64,000 bases of DNA from Mobula birostris (taxonomy: Eukaryota): positions 28,392,782-28,456,781 of the forward strand of contig NC_092377.1 in NCBI RefSeq assembly GCF_030028105.1, read 5' to 3'. The stretch's first letter is position 1. Every line of letters starts with the position of its first letter. Of this stretch, positions 2,761 through 58,148 are shown in pieces. The translations under genes were made by a program, and so were the position numbers. Below the pieces are notes generated by a model, which was not told the DNA's origin, searched no databases, and saw nothing but the letters and a program-made list of their open reading frames with translations.

Positions 2761-5615
2761 CTAGTTCCAATTTCCGGCTTTTTCCCCATATCCCTTGATA
2801 CCCTGACTAATTAGATACCGGTCAATCTCCTCCTTAAACACCCTCAATAATCGGGCCTCCACAACCATATGTGGCAATGAATTCCACAAATCCACAACCC
2901 TCTGGCTAAAAAAATTTCTCCTCATCTCTGTTTTAACTGGGTACCCTCTAATTCTAAGACTATGGCCTCTTGTCCTGGACTCACCCACCAAGGGAAACAA
3001 CCTTTCCACATCTACTCTGTCCAACCCTTTCAACATTCGAAACGTTTCTATGAGATCCCCTCTCATTCTTCTATACTCTAATGAATACAATCCAAGAGCC
3101 GACAGACGCTCCTCATATGTTAGCCCCTGCATTCCAGGAATCATCCTTGTAAATCTTCTCTGAACTCTCTCCAACATCAGTATATCCTTTCTAAGATAGG
3201 GGGCCCAAAACTGCACACAGTATTCCAAATGAGGTCTCACCAATGCCCCATAGAGCCTCATCAACACCTCCTTACTCTTATACACTATTCCCCTTGAAAT
3301 GAATGCCAACATAGCATTTGCTTTCCTTACCACCAATCCAACTTGGTGGTTAACCTTTAGGGTATCCTGCACGAGGACCCCCAAGTCCCTTTGCACTTCC
3401 GATTTTTGAATTTTCTCCCCATCTAAATAATAATCTGCCCGATTATTTCTTCTTCCAAAATGTACAACCGTACACTTGTCAACGTTGTATCTCATCTGCC
3501 ATTTCTTTGCCCACTCTCCTAAACTGACTAAGTCTCTCTGCAACCTTTCCGTTTCTTCAACATTTCCTGCTCCTCCACCTATCTTGGTGTCATCTGCAAA
3601 CTTAGCCACAAACCATTTAATCCATAATCCAAATCATCGATATACACTGTAAAAAGAAGTGGCCCCAACACCGACCCCTGCAGAACACCACTAGTAACCG
3701 GCAACCAATCAGAATAGGATCCCTTTATTCCCACCCTTTGCTTTCTGCCTATCAGCCAATGCTCCACTCATTTCAATATCTTTCCTATAATTCCATGGGC
3801 TCTCATTTTATTAAGCAGCCTCATATGCGGCACCTTATCGAAGGCCTTTAGAAAATCCAAATACACAACATCCACTGCCTCTCCCTTGTCAATCTTATTC
3901 GAGATTACCTCAAAAAATTCCAATAAGTTGGTAAGGCAGGATCTTCCCTTCATGAAACCATGCTGGCTTCAGCCTATCTTGTCATGCACCTCGAGATATT
4001 TCATAACCTCGTCCTTGAGGATTGACTCCAATATCTTTCCAACCACTGATGTCAGACTAATAGATCTGTAATTTTCTTTTTGCTGCCTCCTTCCTTTCTT
4101 AAATAGCGGAACTACATTTGCGAACTTCCAGTCCTCTGGAACCATGCCAGAGTCTATTGATTCCTGAAAGATCATTTCCAATGCTTCCACAATCTCCAAA
4201 GCCACCTCCTTCAGAATCCTCGGGTGCAACTCATCCGGGCCGGGAGACTTATCTATTCTTAGTCCACTTAGCTTCCCAAGCACTTTCTCTCTAGTTATCT
4301 TGACTGTACCTAATTCTATTCCCTGATACCTCTGGCTATCAGGTATATTGCTCATGTCTTCCACTGTGAAGACTGATGCAAAATACTCATTCAGTTCCTC
4401 CACCATCTCTTTGTTATCCATTGTAATTACTCCAGCATCATTTTCAAACGGTCCCATATCCACCCTTATCACTCTTTTACTCTTCATATATTTAAAAAAA
4501 CTCTTAGTATCCTTTTTTATGTTAATCGCCAACTTCCTTTCATAATTCATCTTTTCTTTCCTAATGACTTTCTTAGTTTCTTTCTGTAAGTTTTTAAAGG
4601 TCTTCCAGTCCTCATTTTTCCCACTAATTTTTGCTTCCTTGTACGCCGTTTCTTTTGCTTTTATTTTTGCCTTAACCTCTCTCGTTAGCCACATTTGTGC
4701 CATTTTTCCATTCATGATTTTCTTTTTTCTTGGAATATATTTTTCCTGCATTTTCCTTATTTCTTGTAGGAATTTCATCCAATTCTGCTCTGCCGTCCCT
4801 CCATTTAGTTTACTTTTCCAATTGACTTGGGCCAGTTCCTCTCTCATACCACTGTAATTTCCCCTGTTCCACTGAAATATCGATACACCTGATACCAGCT
4901 TCTCCTTTTCAAATTTGAAACTGAACTCAATCATATTATGATCACTACTTCCAAGAGGTTCCTTTACCTCCAGCTCCCTAATCGCCTCAGGTTCGTTACA
5001 CAGCACCCCAATCCAAAACAGCCTGGGGGGCTTCTGGACAAGTTGCTCCAAAAAGCCATTCTGTAGGCATTCTACAAACTCCCTCTCCTGAGATCCATTA
5101 CCTTCCCAACTTTCCCAATCCACTTTCATATTAAAATCCCCCATAATTATCTTGACATTGTCCTTCTGACATGCTTTTTCTATTTCCAGCTGCAACTTGT
5201 AGTCCACATCCCGACTGCTGTTTGGAGGCCTGTATATAACTGCTATTAGTGTCTTTTTACCCTTGCCATTTCTTAATTCTACCCATAAAGATTCTACCTC
5301 TTCTGATCCTATGTCCCTTCTTTCTATTGATTTGATATCGTTACTTACCATCAGGGCCATGCCACCCCCTTCACCTACCTTCCTATCCTTCCTGTACACT
5401 GTGTATCCTGGGATATTCAGCTCCCAATCACATCCATCATCTAGCCATGACTCGGTGATGGCCACAATGTCATATCTTTTAACCTGCAGCTGTGCAGCAA
5501 GGTCATCCACTTTATTTCTAATGCTGCGTGCATTTAAATACAGTACATTTAGATCGGTACCTGTTGCCACTTGTGCTATATATCTACTTTGCAGCAAATT
5601 ATCCTGTATATTCAC
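2761..5615 (-). pseudogene. CR1 ORF2: APE endonuclease + reverse transcriptase, disrupted
   Basis: APE motifs YLNARS, ITESWL, IYRPP, MGDFN, SDHN. RT motifs KSPGPD, WKFANVVPLFKKG, DFLKAFDKVPH, QGSVLGP, FADDTK. Premature TGA at ~3969 and ~3768, and a frameshift near 3600. Confidence 0.93.
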
Positions 5616-6895: not shown

Positions 6896-8220
6896 ATACC
6901 CATCATAATTTTATATACCTCTATCAAATCTCCCCTCATTCTTCTACACTCCAGGGAATAAAGTCCTAACCTATTCAACCTTTCTCTGTAACTCAATTTC
7001 TCAAGTCCCGGCAACATCCTTGTAAACCTTCTCTGCATTCTTTCAACCTTATTAATATCCTGCCTGTAATTTGGTGACCAAAACTGCACACAATACTCCA
7101 AATACGGCCTCACCAATGCCTTATACAACCTCACCATAACATTCCAACTCTTATACTCAATACTTTGATTTATAAAGGCCAACGTACCAAAAGCTCTCTT
7201 TACGACCCTATCTACCTGTGACGACGCTTTTAGGGAATTTTGTATCTGTATTCCCAGATCCCTCTGTTCTCCTGCACTCCTCAGTACCCTACCATTTACC
7301 TTGTATGTTCTACCTTGGTTTGTCCTTCCAAAGTGCAATACCTCACACTTGTCTGTATTAAACTCGACCTGCCATTTTTCAGTACATTTTTCCAGCTGTC
7401 CAAATCCCTCTGCAAACTTTGAAAACCTTCCTCACTGTCCACTACACCTCCAATCTTTGTATCATCAGCAAATTGGCTGATCCAATTTACCACATTATCA
7501 TCCAGATCATTGATATAGATGACAAATAACAATGGACCCAGCACTGATCCCTGTGGCACACCACTAGTCACAGGCCTCCACTCAGAGAAGCAATCCTCCA
7601 CTATTACCCTCTGGCTTCTTCCATTGAGCCAATGTCTAATCCAATTTACTCCTCTCCATGTATACCTAGCGACTGAATCTTCCTAACTAACCTCCCATGG
7701 GGGACCTTGTCAAAGGCCTTACTGAAGTCCATGTAGACAACATCCACTGCCTTCCCTTCATCCACAAAAAACTATAATAAATTGGTTAAACATGACCTAC
7801 CACGCACAAAGCCATGTTGCCTTACTGAAGTCCATGTAGACAACATCCACTGCCTTCCCTTCATCCTCAAAAAACTATAATAGATTGGTTAAACATGACC
7901 TACCATGCACAAAGCCATGTTGACTCTCCCCAATAAGTCCCTGTCTATCCAAATACTTGCAGGTCCTATCTCTTAGTACTCCTTCCAATAATTTACCTAC
8001 TACCGACGTCAAACTTCCCGGCCTATCATTTTCCAGATTACTTTTAGAGCCTTTTTTAAACAACGGAGCAACGTGAGCCACTCTCCAATCCTCCAGCACC
8101 TCACCCATAGATACCAACATTTTAAATATATCTGCCAGACCCCTTGCAATTTCAACACTAGTCTCCTTTAAGGTCTGAGGGAATACCCTGGCAGGTCCTG
8201 GGGATTTATCTACTCTGATT
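6896..8220 (-). mobile_element. Host CR1 LINE, RT portion (5'-truncated)
   Basis: ORF fragments 6823-7338, 7296-7601 and 7875-8120 carry VPQGSVLGP, FADDTK, LEYCVQFWSP and QHGF..GRSCLTNL. Confidence 0.9.
7716..7922. repeat. ~103-bp tandem duplication inside CR1 RT
   Basis: gccttactgaagtccatgtagacaacatcc...gccatgtt occurs at 7716-7818 and again at 7819-7922. Confidence 0.9.
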
Positions 8221-9940
8221 TGCCATCACACTCCTTGTCCGCCAGAACTGGTCCTCACCATCAACAACTTTTCCTTTTGCTCCTCTCAATTTCTCCAGGC
8301 TCAAGGGGTAACTACAGGCACCTACGTGGGCCCCAGCTATGCCCTCCTTTTCATTGGTTATGTCACTCCAAGTTCCAAGCCTTCCCTGGTAATGCTCCCC
8401 AACTCTTTTACTATTACCTTAATGACTGCATTGCTGCTGCTTCATGCGTCCATGCTGAGCTCGTTAATTTCATCAACTTTCCCTCCAACTTCCAGCTTGC
8501 CCTTAAATTCACTTGGTCCATTTCTGCCCCCTCCCTCCACTTTCTCAACCTCTCTGTCTTCATCTCTGGAAGCAAACTGCCAGTTGATATCTGTTATAAA
8601 CCTAACAATTTACATGGTTATCTGGACTGTATCTCTTCCCACCCTGTCTCCTATAAAAATGCTTTTCCCTTTTCTCAGTTCCTTCATCTCCACCGCATCT
8701 GTCCCCAGGACATCAGAGACACATTCCTTCTTCAAAGAATGGGGTTTCCCCTCCTCCATTGATGCTGCCTTCATCCACATCTCCTCAATTTCGTGAACAT
8801 CTGCACTCAGCCCACCTTCCCATTGCCTCAACAGTGATAGAGCTCCTCTTGTCCTTACCTACACCCCATGAGCCTCTGCATCCAACACGTCGTTTTCCGC
8901 AATTTCTACCATATCCAATGGAATCCTACCACCAAATATACCTTTACCTTCCCCCCAGTCTGATTTCTGCAGAAATCTCGCCCTCTGTGGTTCCCTTGTC
9001 AATTTGTCCCTTCCCACTAATCTCCCTTAACCCTGCAACTGGCTAACGTGATACACCTGCCCCTTCACCTCCTCCGTCACCTCCATTCAAGGCCCCAAAC
9101 AGTGCTTTCCAGGTGAGGCAACACCTCACCTGTGAATCTGCTGGGGTCTTCTTATGTTTCCAGTGCTTCCGATGTGGTCTCCTCTACATTGGTGAGACCT
9201 GTCATAAATTGGGGGACTACTTTGTCAAACACCTCTGCTCTGCCCACCGAAAGTGGAATTCCTGATGGCCCAACATTTTAATTTCAATTCCCATTCCTGT
9301 TCTGACATGTTGGTCCATGGCCTCCTCTTGTGCCACAATGAGGCCAGATTCAGGGTGGAGGAGCAACACTTTATATTCCACACAACCACGAGGAAATCTG
9401 CAGGTGCTAGAAATTCAACCAACACACATGAAAAATACTGGTGAACGCAGCAGGCCTGACGAAGGGTCTGGGCCGAAGCGTTGATTGTACTTCTTCCTAT
9501 AAATGCTGCCTGGCCTGCTGCATTCACCAGCATTTTGTGTGTGTGTTACTTTATATTCCATCTGGATAGCTTCCAACTTTGATGGTATGAATATCAATTT
9601 TTCCTTCTGGTAAAAATAAAATTCCCTCTCAATCTATTCCATATTCCGGCCTCTTACCTCATCTCACCTGTCTATCATGTCCACCTGTGTACCCTGCTCT
9701 TTCCCTTTCTCCTATGGTCCACTCTCCTCTCCTATCTGGTTCTTCCTCTCCAGCCCTTTATCTTTCCCACCCTCCAGCCTTCACCTATTATCTTCTAGTT
9801 ATCCTCTTCTCCAGGCCCAACATTTTATTCTGCCTTCTTTCCCTTTTCTTTCTAGTCCTGACGGAGGGCCTTGACCCAAAATATTTAATCACTTCCATAG
9901 CGTTACCTAACCTGCTGAGTTCCTCCAGCATTTTGTGTCC
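8221..9940 (+). mobile_element. Penelope-like element: RT C-terminal half, GIY-YIG endonuclease and 3' pLTR (degenerate)
   Basis: ELVLTINNFSF, GPSYALLFIGY, YLNDCI (YIDD), LKFTWSIS..LHFLNL, YKP...HGYLD..SSHP..KNAFPFSQFL. GIY-YIG region QVRQHLTCESAGV..CFQCFRCGLLYIGET at ~9110-9200, then a pyrimidine-rich 3' region and pLTR remnant. Confidence 0.88.
9381..9547. mobile_element. Short fold-back PLE-derived insertion 1, with hammerhead-like core
   Basis: 13-bp TSD actttatattcca (9368-9380 / 9548-9560). Arms acacatgaaaaatactggtgaacgcagcaggcc and ggcctgctgcattcaccagcattttgtgtgtgt are inverted. Core ctgacgaagggtctgggccgaagcgttgattg. Confidence 0.85.
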
Positions 9941-10066
9941 ATAAGACATAGGAGCAGAATTAGGCCAACTGGCCCATGGAGTCTGCTCCACCATTCAATC
10001 ATGGCTGATCCCTTTTTATCTATCTCCTGCTCAACCCCAGTTTCTGGCCTTCTCCCCGTAACCTTT

Positions 10067-10260
10067 AACACAAAATACTCTTCAGATGCTGGGGTCAAAG
10101 CAACACTCACAACACGCTGGAGGAACTCAGCAGGTCGGGCAGCATCTGTGGAAACGATCAGCCAACGTTTCGGGCCGGAACCCTTTATCAGTCCTGACGA
10201 AGAGTTCCGGCTCGAAACATTGACTGATCGTTTCCACGGATGCTGCCCGACCTGCTGAGT
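10067..10260. mobile_element. Short fold-back PLE-derived insertion 2, with two head-to-head hammerhead motifs
   Basis: 14-bp TSD tcccYgtaaccttt (10053-10066 / 10261-10274). Near-perfect inverted arms of ~70 bp centred on 10192-10193. Confidence 0.9.
10187..10228 (+). ncRNA. Minimal type I hammerhead ribozyme motif (PLE pLTR-type), CpG-decayed at the cleavage site
   Basis: ATCAGTC-CTGACGA-A-GAGTT-CC-GGCTC-GAAA-CATT-GACTGAT: helix I ATCAGTC/GACTGAT, core CUGANGA and GAAA, helix II GAGTT/GGCTC. Confidence 0.72.
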
Positions 10261-10819
10261 TCCCTGTAACCTTTGATGCCATGTCCAATCAAGAACCTAT
10301 CAATCTCTGCCTTAAGTATGCCAGTGACCTGGCCTCCACAGCTGAATGTGGCAACAAATTCCGCAAATGCACCACCCTTTGACTGAAGAAATTTAACCTC
10401 ATCTCTGTTTTGAAAGGGCGCCCGTCTATCCTGAGGCTGTGCCCTCTTGTTCTAGACTTTCCCATCATGGGAAGCATCCTTTCTATATCTACTCTGTCTA
10501 GGCCTTTCAACATTCGAAAGGTTTTAATATGAGCCCCCTTCATCCTTCTGAATTCCAGCAAGTACAGACCCAGAGCCATCAAACGTTCCTCGTATGATAA
10601 CCCTTTCATTCCCGCAGTATACAATGGCAAAAGACTTCAAATCAGAAACTTACCCTTCCACCATTACTCTCTGCCACCCGTCACCAAGCCAATTTTGCAC
10701 CCAATTAGACAGATCACCTGGGATGCCATGTAGCTTCTAGGCCAACCAACATGCAAGAGCTTAAGAAATGTCTTACTAAAGTCCATTTCGTTGAGGCTAA
10801 CCACCCACCTTTATCAATC

Positions 10820-21564: not shown

Positions 21565-21774
21565 CACGCTAAATGCTGGAGGAACTGAACAAGTCAGGCG
21601 ACATATATGGAGGGGAATAAAGTGCTGATGTTTCGGGTCAGGACTGGTGAAGGCTCTCAGCCCGAAACATCAACTGTTCATTCTTCTCCATAGCTGCTAC
21701 CTGACTTGTTGAGTTCTTTGAGCATCTTGTATAGGTGCTGCTCAAGATTTCCAGCATCTATAGAAGCTTCTGTA
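21565..21774. mobile_element. Short fold-back PLE-derived insertion 3
   Basis: 13-bp TSD tttcagtccacta (21552-21564 / 21775-21787). Inverted arms meet at tttcgggtcag-ga-ctggtgaaggctctcagcccgaaacatcaactg. Confidence 0.85.
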
Positions 21775-35073: not shown

Positions 35074-36072
35074 AAACAAGGGAAAATCTGCGGATGCTGG
35101 AAATCCAAGCAACACACACAAAATGCTGGAGGAACTCAGCAGGCCAGGCAGCATCTATGGCAAAGAGTGCAGTTGATGTTTCAGGCCCAGATCCTTCAGC
35201 AGGACTGGGGGGAAAAAGATGTGGAGTAGAGTTAGAAGGTGGGGGGAGGGGAGGGAAAAACACAAGGTGATAGTTGACAATGGGAGGGAGAAGGGTGAAG
35301 TAAAGATCTGGGCAGTTGATTGGTGAAAAACTTGCAGGGCTGGAGAAGGGGGAGTCTGATAGTAGAGGGCCCAAGGCCATGGAAAAAAGATAAGGAGGAG
35401 GAGCACCAGAGGGAGGTGATAGGCAGACAAGGAGATAAAGTGAGAGAGGAAGAAGGGGATGAGAAATGGTGAGTGGGGGCGCCATTACGGGAAGATTGAG
35501 AAATTGATGTTCATGCCATCAGGTTGGAAGCTACCCAGACGGAATATAAGGTGTTGTTCCTCCAACCTGATTGTGGTCTAATCGCGAAAGTAAATAAGTA
35601 GACACGGAGGCCATGGATAGACTTATCGGATTGGGAATGGAACGTGAAATTAAAATGGGTGGCCATTGGGAGATCCCGCTTTTCTTGGCGGACGGAGTGT
35701 AGGTGCCCGGTGAAGCAGATTCCCACAGTATATGACCCCAACAGACTCACAGGTGAAGTGAAGTGGAAAAACTGTTTGGGGCACTGAATTGTAGTGAGAG
35801 AGGAGGTGCTGGGGCAGGTTTAGCACTTGTTCTGCTTGCAAGGATAAGCGCCAGGAGGGAGATTAATGGGGAAGGACAAATGGACAAGGGAGTTGCATAG
35901 GGTGTGAACCCCAGGGAAAGCCAAAAGTGCTGGTGGGAGGGGAGGATGTACTTGGTGGTTGGATCTCGCTGGGGATGGCAGAAGTTGCGGAAAATTATGT
36001 GCTGGATGTGGAGCATCAGGGGGTTGGTAGGTGAGGACAAGAGGAACCCTACCAGCATTTTGTGTGTGTTGC
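35074..36072 (-). mobile_element. 5'-truncated PLE (GIY-YIG part + pLTR) with a short inverted pLTR segment at its 5' end
   Basis: HFTCESVGVIYC, HLHSVRQEKRDLPMATHFN, hammerhead remnant ccagtcctgctgaaggatctgggcctgaaacatcaactg (minus, ~35169-35207), inverted accagcattttgtgtgtgttgc at 36051-36072, and degenerate TSD ataatgaaggac / taaatgaaagac. Confidence 0.82.
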
Positions 36073-57915: not shown

Positions 57916-58148
57916 ATAGCAACTCACGCAAAATGCTGGAGGAATTCAGCAGGTGTGGCAGCATCCGTGGAAATGAACAGTCCACGTTTCACTTTCATAC
58001 CCTTCATCAGTCCTGATGAAGGGTCTCAGCCTGAAATATCAACCTTTTGTTAATTTCCATGAATACTGCCTGACCTGCTGAGTTCCTCCAGTATTTTCTG
58101 TGTGTTGCTTTAGATTTCCAGCATCTGAAGAATCTCTTGTGTTTATCA
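57916..58148. mobile_element. Short fold-back PLE-derived insertion 4
   Basis: 12-bp TSD gtagtgatagtg (57904-57915 / 58149-58160). Perfect central palindrome acccttcatcag-tc-ctgatgaagggt (57999-58024) and long inverted arms. Confidence 0.88.

What the first reader, a model, noticed from the sequence alone, without database searches (positions are those of the whole stretch)
10187..10228. Minimal hammerhead ribozyme motif in a Penelope-derived terminal repeat
Seen: ATCAGTC-CTGACGA-A-GAGTT-CC-GGCTC-GAAA-C-ATT-GACTGAT folds as a type I hammerhead with a 7-bp helix I, intact CUGANGA and GAAA cores, one extra A before helix II, and almost no helix III. Helix II here is GAGTT/GGCTC, whereas the opposite arm reads GGGTT/GGCCC, a G-C to A-T compensatory change. 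Established: PLE pLTRs in other animals carry minimal hammerheads with a very short palindromic helix III, proposed to cleave as dimers. Inference: this PLE family encodes such a ribozyme, and this copy's GUC site has decayed to AUU through two CpG transitions.
Basis: partly seen in the sequence, partly recalled or inferred. Interest (0 to 1): 0.8.

Follow-up and report, generated by a model that had tools for sequence, protein, structure and literature searches.

The report
Decayed hammerhead in a Penelope palindrome
This is a worn-out copy of a tiny self-cutting RNA motif already known from Penelope-type jumping genes; the copy itself is ordinary, but where its many sister copies stop suggests the RNA is usually copied uncut.

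Summary
The motif is real and belongs to a known class: a minimal hammerhead in the terminal repeat of a Neptune-type Penelope-like element (RT and GIY-YIG found upstream in sister copies). It is the right arm of a ~197-bp head-to-head insertion with a 14-bp target duplication. Three claims need correcting. The G-C to A-U 'compensation' matches chance (5 copies genome-wide, 3.0 expected). Two of the seven helix I pairs come from the opposite arm. The subfamily already had GUU (88 of 112 copies), so only one post-insertion CpG change hit the site; it breaks the ACGU dimer palindrome. Read through, the locus folds as one long hairpin. This copy is very likely inactive. The useful result is family-wide: of 100 tail-anchored copies, 78 of the 86 reaching the cut site cross it, and 5' ends pile up inside the ribozyme (2.4%/nt versus 0.19%/nt upstream), stopping near its first base with a partial extra-G excess. 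That fits uncut templates starting at the ribozyme. No cleavage or expression was tested.

The parts
10053..10066 (.). Left target-site duplication (14 bp), in a CR1-like LINE remnant
   Evidence: 13 of 14 identical to 10261-10274, the difference a CpG-type C>T. The host stretch 10322-10612 is 74% like 2845-3135, which runs into an RT-like frame near 3644; the CR1 label is recalled.
10067..10191 (-). Long arm: PLE 3' repeat from the hammerhead core to the element's 3' end, including the ~35-nt tail
   Evidence: 4 differences in 124 nt from the family majority. The tail 19-mer occurs 7063 times genome-wide.
10159..10191 (-). Second, dead hammerhead copy: core CUGAUAA (G8>A), helix II GGGU/GCCC, GAAACGUU, no 5' strand of helix I
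   Evidence: changes at -24, -23, +1; junction at -30/-29.
10188..10197 (.). Head-to-head junction at the natural quasi-palindrome TCAG-TC-CTGA (4-nt overlap of the two arms)
   Evidence: Self-alignment. The same junction occurs in L028 and at window ~58006-58016; most other palindromes have other junctions.
10189..10263 (+). Short arm: from the first base of helix I to +41 after the cut site, without the tail
   Evidence: 4 differences in 75 nt from the majority; 3-nt overlap with the right duplication.
10189..10226 (+). Minimal type I hammerhead, decayed: helix I 10189-10193/10222-10226, CUGACGA 10194-10200, extra A 10201, helix II 10202-10205/10210-10213, GAAA 10214-10217, ACAU in place of ACGU, cut site after 10221
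   Evidence: Helix III self-duplex: ACGU -1.7 kcal/mol, ACAU +3.4 kcal/mol.
10261..10274 (.). Right target-site duplication
8000..9545 (+). Separate, broken PLE of a sister subfamily (RT and GIY-YIG remnants, own decayed hammerhead at ~9451-9487); the start is only the edge of the stretch translated

Best explanation
This is a dead, post-insertion copy of the minimal hammerhead that Neptune-type Penelope-like elements carry in their terminal repeat. Shown: (a) it is one arm of a head-to-head insertion flanked by a 14-bp duplication; (b) the family is a PLE with RT, a CxxxCxxC linker, GIY-YIG, then a pyrimidine tract, the hammerhead and a tail; (c) this arm has lost the ACGU palindrome that builds helix III between two RNAs and ends in AUU, the other arm has lost G8, and read-through RNA pairs arm to arm. 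Inferred: such insertions arise when the RT/endonuclease primes cDNA from both nicked target strands, one at the distal start site (long arm with tail) and one at the proximal site ~35 nt upstream (short arm). Both cDNAs stop inside or at the 5' edge of the hammerhead and are joined by 1-6 nt of microhomology or a few untemplated bases. The templates were mostly uncut at the ribozyme site. In the source element the motif probably cuts only weakly, as a dimer and with protein help, as reported for other PLEs.
For: RT (PF00078, 32.2 bits, cut-off 29.6) and GIY-YIG (PF01541, 25.3 bits, cut-off 22.6) lie upstream of the same repeat in L253, which also has an inverted repeat copy with tail at its other side. 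GIY-YIG frames occur in many shorter copies. Of 100 tail-anchored copies, 58 were called with an abutting inverted arm (4-5 of these calls are likely artefacts of the far end of my reference). 44 inverted arms end in the tail region, 38 of them at +54 to +69, matching the two RT start sites and 30-40-nt tail of PMC11167929. 78 of 86 copies that reach the cut site cross it. Only 24 of 112 copies of this subfamily keep an intact minimal motif. Across 6 subfamily majorities, 1 of 11 core columns and 0 of 8 helix II stem columns vary, against 3 of 4 in loop II and 6 of 13 in the spacer behind helix I. Hairpin and dimer energies. Known precedent.
Against: No cleavage assay and no expression data. 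No convincing covariation was found in this genome: in 352 copies compensatory counts are near expectation, except pair I.4 (9 vs 3.6) and pair II.2 (6 vs 0.9), where 5 of the 6 are the copies I fetched for that change. On 13 aligned copies, 64 of 500 shuffles reach the covariation score. The tail is almost as conserved as the core (5 of 28 columns vary), so core conservation alone does not prove catalysis. 8 of 86 copies end within 3 nt of the cut site (1.1-1.5 expected from background, 8.3 from the ribozyme-wide rate; one of the 8 is a doubtful call), so some cut templates are not excluded. Neptune membership rests on the linker motif, not on a tree.
Confidence: 0.85

Rival explanations
1. 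The short copies end at the ribozyme's 5' edge because the element's capped transcript starts there (around the A of CAGTCC, an initiator-like YYANWYY, consensus recalled). RT starting in the nearby tail runs off the uncut 5' end, like strong-stop DNA, sometimes copying the cap as an extra G.
For: Sharp edge: 32 ends in 1334 nt at risk for -15..-37, then 1 in 2720 for -38..-100. In 38 of 44 palindromes neither arm passes -40, and in 20 the furthest end is at -26..-36. Base before A(-32) in copies truncated there: G 12, A 4, T 2 of 18, P=3e-4 against genome composition (6 further 'T' rows set aside by eye as other subfamilies with a natural T, 6 rows not truncated). In a sister subfamily G 59: A 41 of the first 100 listed, P=2e-4 against composition, 0.04 against 50:50. 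Long arms ending at -31..-33: G in 4 of 4, against 3 of 39 elsewhere in the ribozyme. Extra G as a cap mark: PMC11702581 passage on L1.
Against: Inverted arms show no G excess (3 of 11 against 7 of 24). In the core-selected set only 1 of 5 ends at -31..-33 has G. Ends spread over -15..-37 rather than one base. No matched genome-wide control at another truncation position was run, and there are no RNA 5'-end data.
Confidence: 0.45
2. The ends cluster there because the hammerhead is the first strongly self-complementary stretch the two nascent cDNAs meet, so they anneal (or one folds back) through helix I, helix II or the ACGU/GTCGAC palindromes. No RNA 5' end is needed.
For: The share of positions with a >=5-bp inverted partner within 45 nt is 0.33 (+6..-14) and 0.17 (-15..-37), against 0.04-0.07 elsewhere. 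Junctions such as this one (TCAG/CTGA), L136 (helix I partners) and L150/L170 (GTT/AAC) use those partners. Palindromes at inverted junctions were noted in rotifer PLEs and read as self-priming.
Against: Many junctions carry 1-17 untemplated bases rather than overlap. Ends also fall there in copies with no inverted arm (e.g. L116, L126, L166, L178, L187). It does not explain the extra G. Simple fold-back predicts the long arm always reaches further 5', but the split is 19 long to 24 short.
Confidence: 0.35
3. One reading: this copy records selection on an active ribozyme (compensatory change, long helix I) and might still function.
For: CUGACGA and GAAA are intact, and the isolated 42-mer's minimum-energy fold is the hammerhead shape.
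Against: The A-U pair is at chance frequency. The five A-U copies differ at the cut site and spacer, so they are not one lineage. The outer helix I pairs come from the other arm. ACAU cannot form the dimer helix. In context the motif is buried in a long hairpin.
Confidence: 0.04
4. The palindrome is a MITE or a miRNA-like hairpin gene that spread as a unit.
For: It has two long inverted arms and a target duplication; it gets sub-threshold pre-miRNA-type Rfam matches; at least 40 similar palindromes were scored.
Against: Central junctions and short-arm ends differ from copy to copy, the arms are asymmetric, and duplications vary in length and sequence. The same sequence forms the 3' end of RT/EN-coding elements. 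All Rfam matches are far below their gathering scores.
Confidence: 0.05

Closest known systems
Minimal hammerheads (min-HHR) of metazoan PLE pLTRs, incl. Xena, Poseidon and Neptune of fishes (Cervera & de la Pena 2014, PMC4209133)
   Same: Type I topology, 4-5-bp helix I, extra nucleotide between A9 and G10.1, G10.1-C11.1, no helix III but a palindromic 15.2-16.2, location in the terminal repeat, thousands of dispersed truncated copies, pairs on opposite strands.
   Different: Helix II is 4 bp rather than the 7-8 bp of Schistosoma motifs. Copy number is far higher: 50,077 exact matches to one degenerate 33-mer, against ~9,000 reported for Xenopus (different search methods). This copy is decayed.
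Poseidon of Anolis carolinensis, PAc (Frangieh et al. 2024, PMC11167929)
   Same: Both target strands are extended, two RT start sites define a tail, uncut RNA is the dominant template, and the ribozyme needs protein help. The genomic pattern here fits each of the first three.
   Different: PAc is Penelope/Poseidon clade with the ORF starting inside the ribozyme; this family has the Neptune-type linker. In the parts I read, the PAc work maps 3' ends and RNA reads, not the 5' junctions of genomic copies.
Head-to-head inverted pLTR structures of PLEs (Arkhipova et al. 2013, PMC3846280; Craig et al. 2021, PMC8557442)
   Same: An inverted 5'-truncated copy abuts the 5' end, the tail is on one arm only, target duplications are short, and there are palindromes at the junction.
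   Different: Here both arms are reduced to ~75-125 nt and the junctions can be counted: they concentrate in the hammerhead.
Non-LTR retrozymes (bioRxiv 10.64898/2026.07.22.740005)
   Same: PLE-derived, non-coding, type I hammerhead; reported also from one chondrichthyan genome.
   Different: Retrozymes are head-to-tail tandem arrays with a working ribozyme in each unit. This locus is a single inverted pair with two broken motifs.

Membership tests
PLE minimal hammerhead (min-HHR) | Core CUGANGA ... GAAA | tested here: met
   10194-10200 and 10214-10217; family majorities
PLE minimal hammerhead (min-HHR) | Helix I of 4-5 bp and helix II with an extra nucleotide before G10.1-C11.1 | tested here: met
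PLE minimal hammerhead (min-HHR) | Palindromic 15.1-16.1 (ACGU) allowing a dimer helix III | tested here: inconclusive
   Met by the subfamily (CG in 67 of 112 copies, the rest CpG decay); not met by this copy (ACAU, +3.4 kcal/mol)
PLE minimal hammerhead (min-HHR) | NUH cleavage triplet | tested here: met
   AUU here, GUU in the subfamily source, GUC in sister subfamilies. That U17 cleaves slowly is recalled, not from a call.
PLE minimal hammerhead (min-HHR) | Covariation in helices I and II | tested here: not met
   one genome only, with little stem variation between lineages. R-scape was not available.
PLE minimal hammerhead (min-HHR) | Mg2+-dependent self-cleavage as dimer or with protein | not testable with these tools
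   No assay possible
EN+ Penelope-like element | Single ORF with RT followed by C-terminal GIY-YIG, hammerhead-bearing repeat behind it | tested here: met
   L253: RT PF00078 and GIY-YIG PF01541 in one frame separated by one stop, repeat downstream
EN+ Penelope-like element | Inverted 5'-truncated copy and optional 30-40-nt tail | tested here: met
Neptune clade | CX2-5CxxC linker between RT and EN | tested here: met
   CKRKCYTC in L106, L149, L179, L206, L253. The motif is also described for Nematis.
Neptune clade | RT phylogeny with Neptune references | not tested
   No reference set or tree built
Non-LTR retrozyme | Head-to-tail tandem units each with an intact hammerhead | tested here: not met
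   Single head-to-head pair, both motifs broken
Rfam hammerhead families | Match to an Rfam hammerhead model | tested here: not met

The most novel reading that the evidence does not exclude
In this Neptune-type family the hammerhead works less as a cutter than as the 5' cap-proximal pairing device of the transcript. Transcripts start at its first base and stay uncut. Two RNAs, possibly held together by the intermolecular ACGU helix, are copied from opposite nicks by a dimeric RT/endonuclease, and the ribozyme's own self-complementarity joins the two cDNAs head to head. This would explain why the junctions pile up in the ribozyme, and why successful source lineages tolerated GUU, a mismatch in helix I, G.U at the base of helix II and apparently A6C, while all six subfamily majorities kept ACGU.
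Probability: 0.2. Interest if true: 0.65.

Novelty: new member of a known kind. Interest (0 to 1): 0.27.

Why it matters
The copy itself matters little: it is one of tens of thousands of decayed repeats of a class described in 2014. The family matters somewhat more. What PLE hammerheads do is stated to be unclear (PMC8557442), and in vitro the uncut RNA is the template (PMC11167929). This genome holds over 50,000 near-intact motifs, so every insertion junction is a record of where a cDNA stopped. A 100-copy sample already shows that most cDNAs cross the cut site and stop near the ribozyme's 5' edge. A whole-genome version of this count, with RNA 5'-end mapping, would test directly whether these ribozymes cut, mark the transcript start, or pair two templates.

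Tried and rejected
Rfam: no hammerhead match in the window or the locus. Compensatory change: rejected on genome-wide haplotype counts. A helix I variant AGTT/AACT as a covarying lineage: among the first 100 of 367 matches most AGTT copies keep GACT, so it is not supported at that spacing. Covariation in 352 copies and on a 13-row alignment: none convincing. Per-copy conservation of core versus flanks in this subfamily: the core is not better kept (4.8% versus 1.9% in the tail), but the copies were chosen by tail or spacer and junctions fall in the core, so the comparison is biased and not used. My first impression that all copies start at the ribozyme was a query bias; I replaced it with the tail-anchored sample. 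Splicing at the pyrimidine tract plus CAG as the cause of the edge: short copies keep the AG, none of the 144 ends fell at -30, and no shared upstream exon was seen. A6C lineage size: 0 of the first 100 listed matches; not counted genome-wide. Earlier findings of this scan: nothing returned. Literature: searches for Penelope+hammerhead, Penelope/Neptune/cartilaginous/pLTR, Penelope+palindrom+SINE+shark, Penelope/HHR/cleavage site/truncat/junction and Penelope/elasmobranch terms listed no paper mapping 5' junctions of PLE copies onto the hammerhead. The library lacks most subscription journals, Repbase was not available, and supplement file 1 of PMC4209133 could not be searched, so this is not proof of absence.

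Full report
Setting. The window is C9:28,392,782-28,456,781 of a 4.0-Gb genome, about 41% GC and rich in LINE remnants. It looks like a cartilaginous fish; that is a recalled resemblance and comes from no call. Positions such as -32 or +41 are counted from the first base after the hammerhead cut site (0 = window 10222).

1. The observation. The 42 bases are as quoted. Alone they fold with a 7-bp outer and a 4-bp inner helix, -11.4 kcal/mol, z -1.94; trimmed to the 38 bases that belong to the element, -8.4, z -0.78. Rfam gives no hammerhead match. The motif is not chance: the 19-mer spanning helix II in its common form occurs 5225 times, reversed control 0. A degenerate 33-mer of the commonest sister family occurs 50,077 times. 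nhmmer finds 17 related stretches in this window, both arms included.

2. Anatomy. 10122-10263 is a near-perfect inverted repeat. The left arm (minus strand, 10191-10067) runs to the element's 3' end. The right arm (10189-10263) stops at +41. A 14-bp duplication flanks the pair (10053-10066 and 10261-10274, 13 of 14 identical). The right arm differs from the majority at four places (-19, -10, -3, +16), the left at G8 among others. A transcript crossing both arms folds as one hairpin of -122.7 kcal/mol, with 0 of 200 shuffles as good.

3. Family. Copies found by the tail alone mostly continue upstream through a pyrimidine tract into a GIY-YIG frame about 550-600 nt away (Pfam 23.6 bits in L106, above the cut-off, and 20.2 in L102, below it). 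L253 holds a 511-aa RT frame and a 123-aa GIY-YIG frame separated by one stop, the CKRKCYTC linker, a direct repeat copy behind and an inverted copy with tail in front. This is an EN+ PLE with a Neptune-type linker; no tree was built. A broken element of a sister subfamily lies at about 8000-9545 in the window.

4. The compensatory change. Exact counts of the four haplotypes are G-C 5225, A.C 182, G.U 86 and A-U 5. Independent decay predicts 3.0; P=0.18, Fisher 0.24. The five A-U copies differ in cut site and spacer. In 352 copies no pair shows clear excess once the five fetched copies are discounted; pair I.4 has 9 against 3.6. On 13 aligned copies, 64 of 500 shuffles reach the score.

5. The cut site. 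In this subfamily (112 copies with the motif, of 128) the -1/0 dinucleotide is TG 88, CG 17, CA 4, while the CpG beside it is CG 67, CA 31, TG 13. The source therefore mostly had GUU, and G16.2>A is common decay. Three sister subfamilies have GUC (51 of 67, 16 of 22, 22 of 28). ACAU cannot self-pair (+3.4 against -1.7 kcal/mol for ACGU). Among six subfamily majorities 1 of 11 core columns, 0 of 8 helix II stem columns, 3 of 4 loop columns, 3 of 10 helix I columns, 6 of 13 spacer columns and 5 of 28 tail columns vary. This fits selection on the fold in the source elements but does not single out catalysis.

6. Where copies end. I took the first 100 of 7063 exact matches to a tail 19-mer, all on contig 1, and mapped both arms. 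58 were called with an inverted arm; 4-5 of these are likely artefacts of my reference's far end, and 13 copies ran off the reference. 44 inverted arms end in the tail region, 38 at +54..+69, about 35 nt short of the long arms' end. Of the long arms, 14 stop in the tail, 8 within 3 nt of the cut site (one doubtful) and 78 cross it. Ends per base at risk: tail 13/5103; -15..-37 32/1334; -38..-100 1/2720; -101..-578 30/13,939; P about 1e-24 for the core against upstream. The 8 ends at the cut site exceed background (1.1-1.5) but equal the ribozyme-wide rate (8.3), so there is no separate peak and a minority of cut templates is not excluded. Cutting followed by religation into circles would also leave the site intact. 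In 38 of 44 palindromes neither arm passes -40.

7. Why they end there. For a capped start near -32: the sharp edge; G before A(-32) in 12 of 18 truncated copies; G 43, A 21, T 36 in the first 100 of 362 listed (counted by eye; 10 of the A rows form one cluster, and many T rows are other subfamilies); G 59 against A 41 in a sister family; and 4 of 4 long arms against 3 of 39. Against it: inverted arms 3 of 11 against 7 of 24; 1 of 5 in a core-selected set; pooled 7 of 15 against 10 of 63, P=0.016. For annealing at self-complementary sequence: the ribozyme region is the most self-complementary part of the 3' end, and several junctions use helix partners. The two readings are compatible.

8. Comparison with what is known. 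PMC4209133 (read: parts 1-2 of 4, covering abstract, results, discussion and start of methods; two supplement files searched, one not searchable) describes minimal hammerheads in Xena, Poseidon and Neptune of fishes, the extra nucleotide, the palindromic 15.2-16.2, pairs on opposite strands, and low dimer-only cleavage. PMC11167929 (parts 1-2 of 4) reports extension of both strands, two RT start sites making the tail, a protein-assisted ribozyme and uncut RNA as template. PMC8557442 and PMC3846280 (passages) describe inverted 5'-truncated copies, tails and junction palindromes, and call the ribozyme's role unclear. The 2026 retrozyme preprint (parts 1-2 of 5 and passages; its supplements were not seen) includes one chondrichthyan. 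PMC11702581 and PMC7151607 (passages) were used for the extra-G mark and for A6C. It works like, and at family level meets the sequence features of, a PLE minimal hammerhead; covariation was not met in this genome and cleavage could not be tested.

9. Verdict. A new member of a known kind, and a dead copy. The remaining value is the junction pattern, which makes an open question about PLE ribozymes countable. Interest 0.27.

Noticed in passing
Genome-wide, one search list: The commonest sister family mostly has G.U at the base of helix II (about 79 of the first 100 listed, by eye, against about 17 decayed at the neighbouring CpG), so its source probably carried U11.1 in place of the 'highly conserved' C11.1.
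   Followed up: partly
window 35175-35202 (-); L081:5441-5507, L081:5782-5856, L096:2215-2287, L196:2628-2698, L246:328-400: An older subfamily appears to carry A6C in the core (5 of 9 copies with the motif in that group; 10 C6 calls in two groups). A6C is reported to lower Mg2+ activity and favour Mn2+. Lineage size was not counted.
   Followed up: partly
Subfamilies F2 and F3: Source lineages with a mismatch in outer helix I (CAGTC/GACCG, CAGTC/GACTC) amplified well, which suggests only 3-4 bp of helix I are needed.
   Followed up: partly
window 21582-21716 and 57941-58086: Two more head-to-head palindromes of older subfamilies; the second has the same TCAG-TC-CTGA junction as the finding.
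   Followed up: partly
L223 (centre, ~1430-1520): Three short head-to-tail pieces of the hammerhead region in a row, each ending just after the cut site, which looks like repeated template jumps or a mini-retrozyme.
   Followed up: no
G000:C5:12,147,427-12,776,470: Ten identical pattern hits at 35-170 kb spacing on one strand, probably a segmental-duplication array.
   Followed up: no
Genome-wide: Roughly 40% of tail-anchored copies form 150-250-bp near-perfect inverted repeats. Inside transcripts these would be abundant double-stranded RNA, possible substrates for editing or small-RNA pathways; not tested.
   Followed up: no
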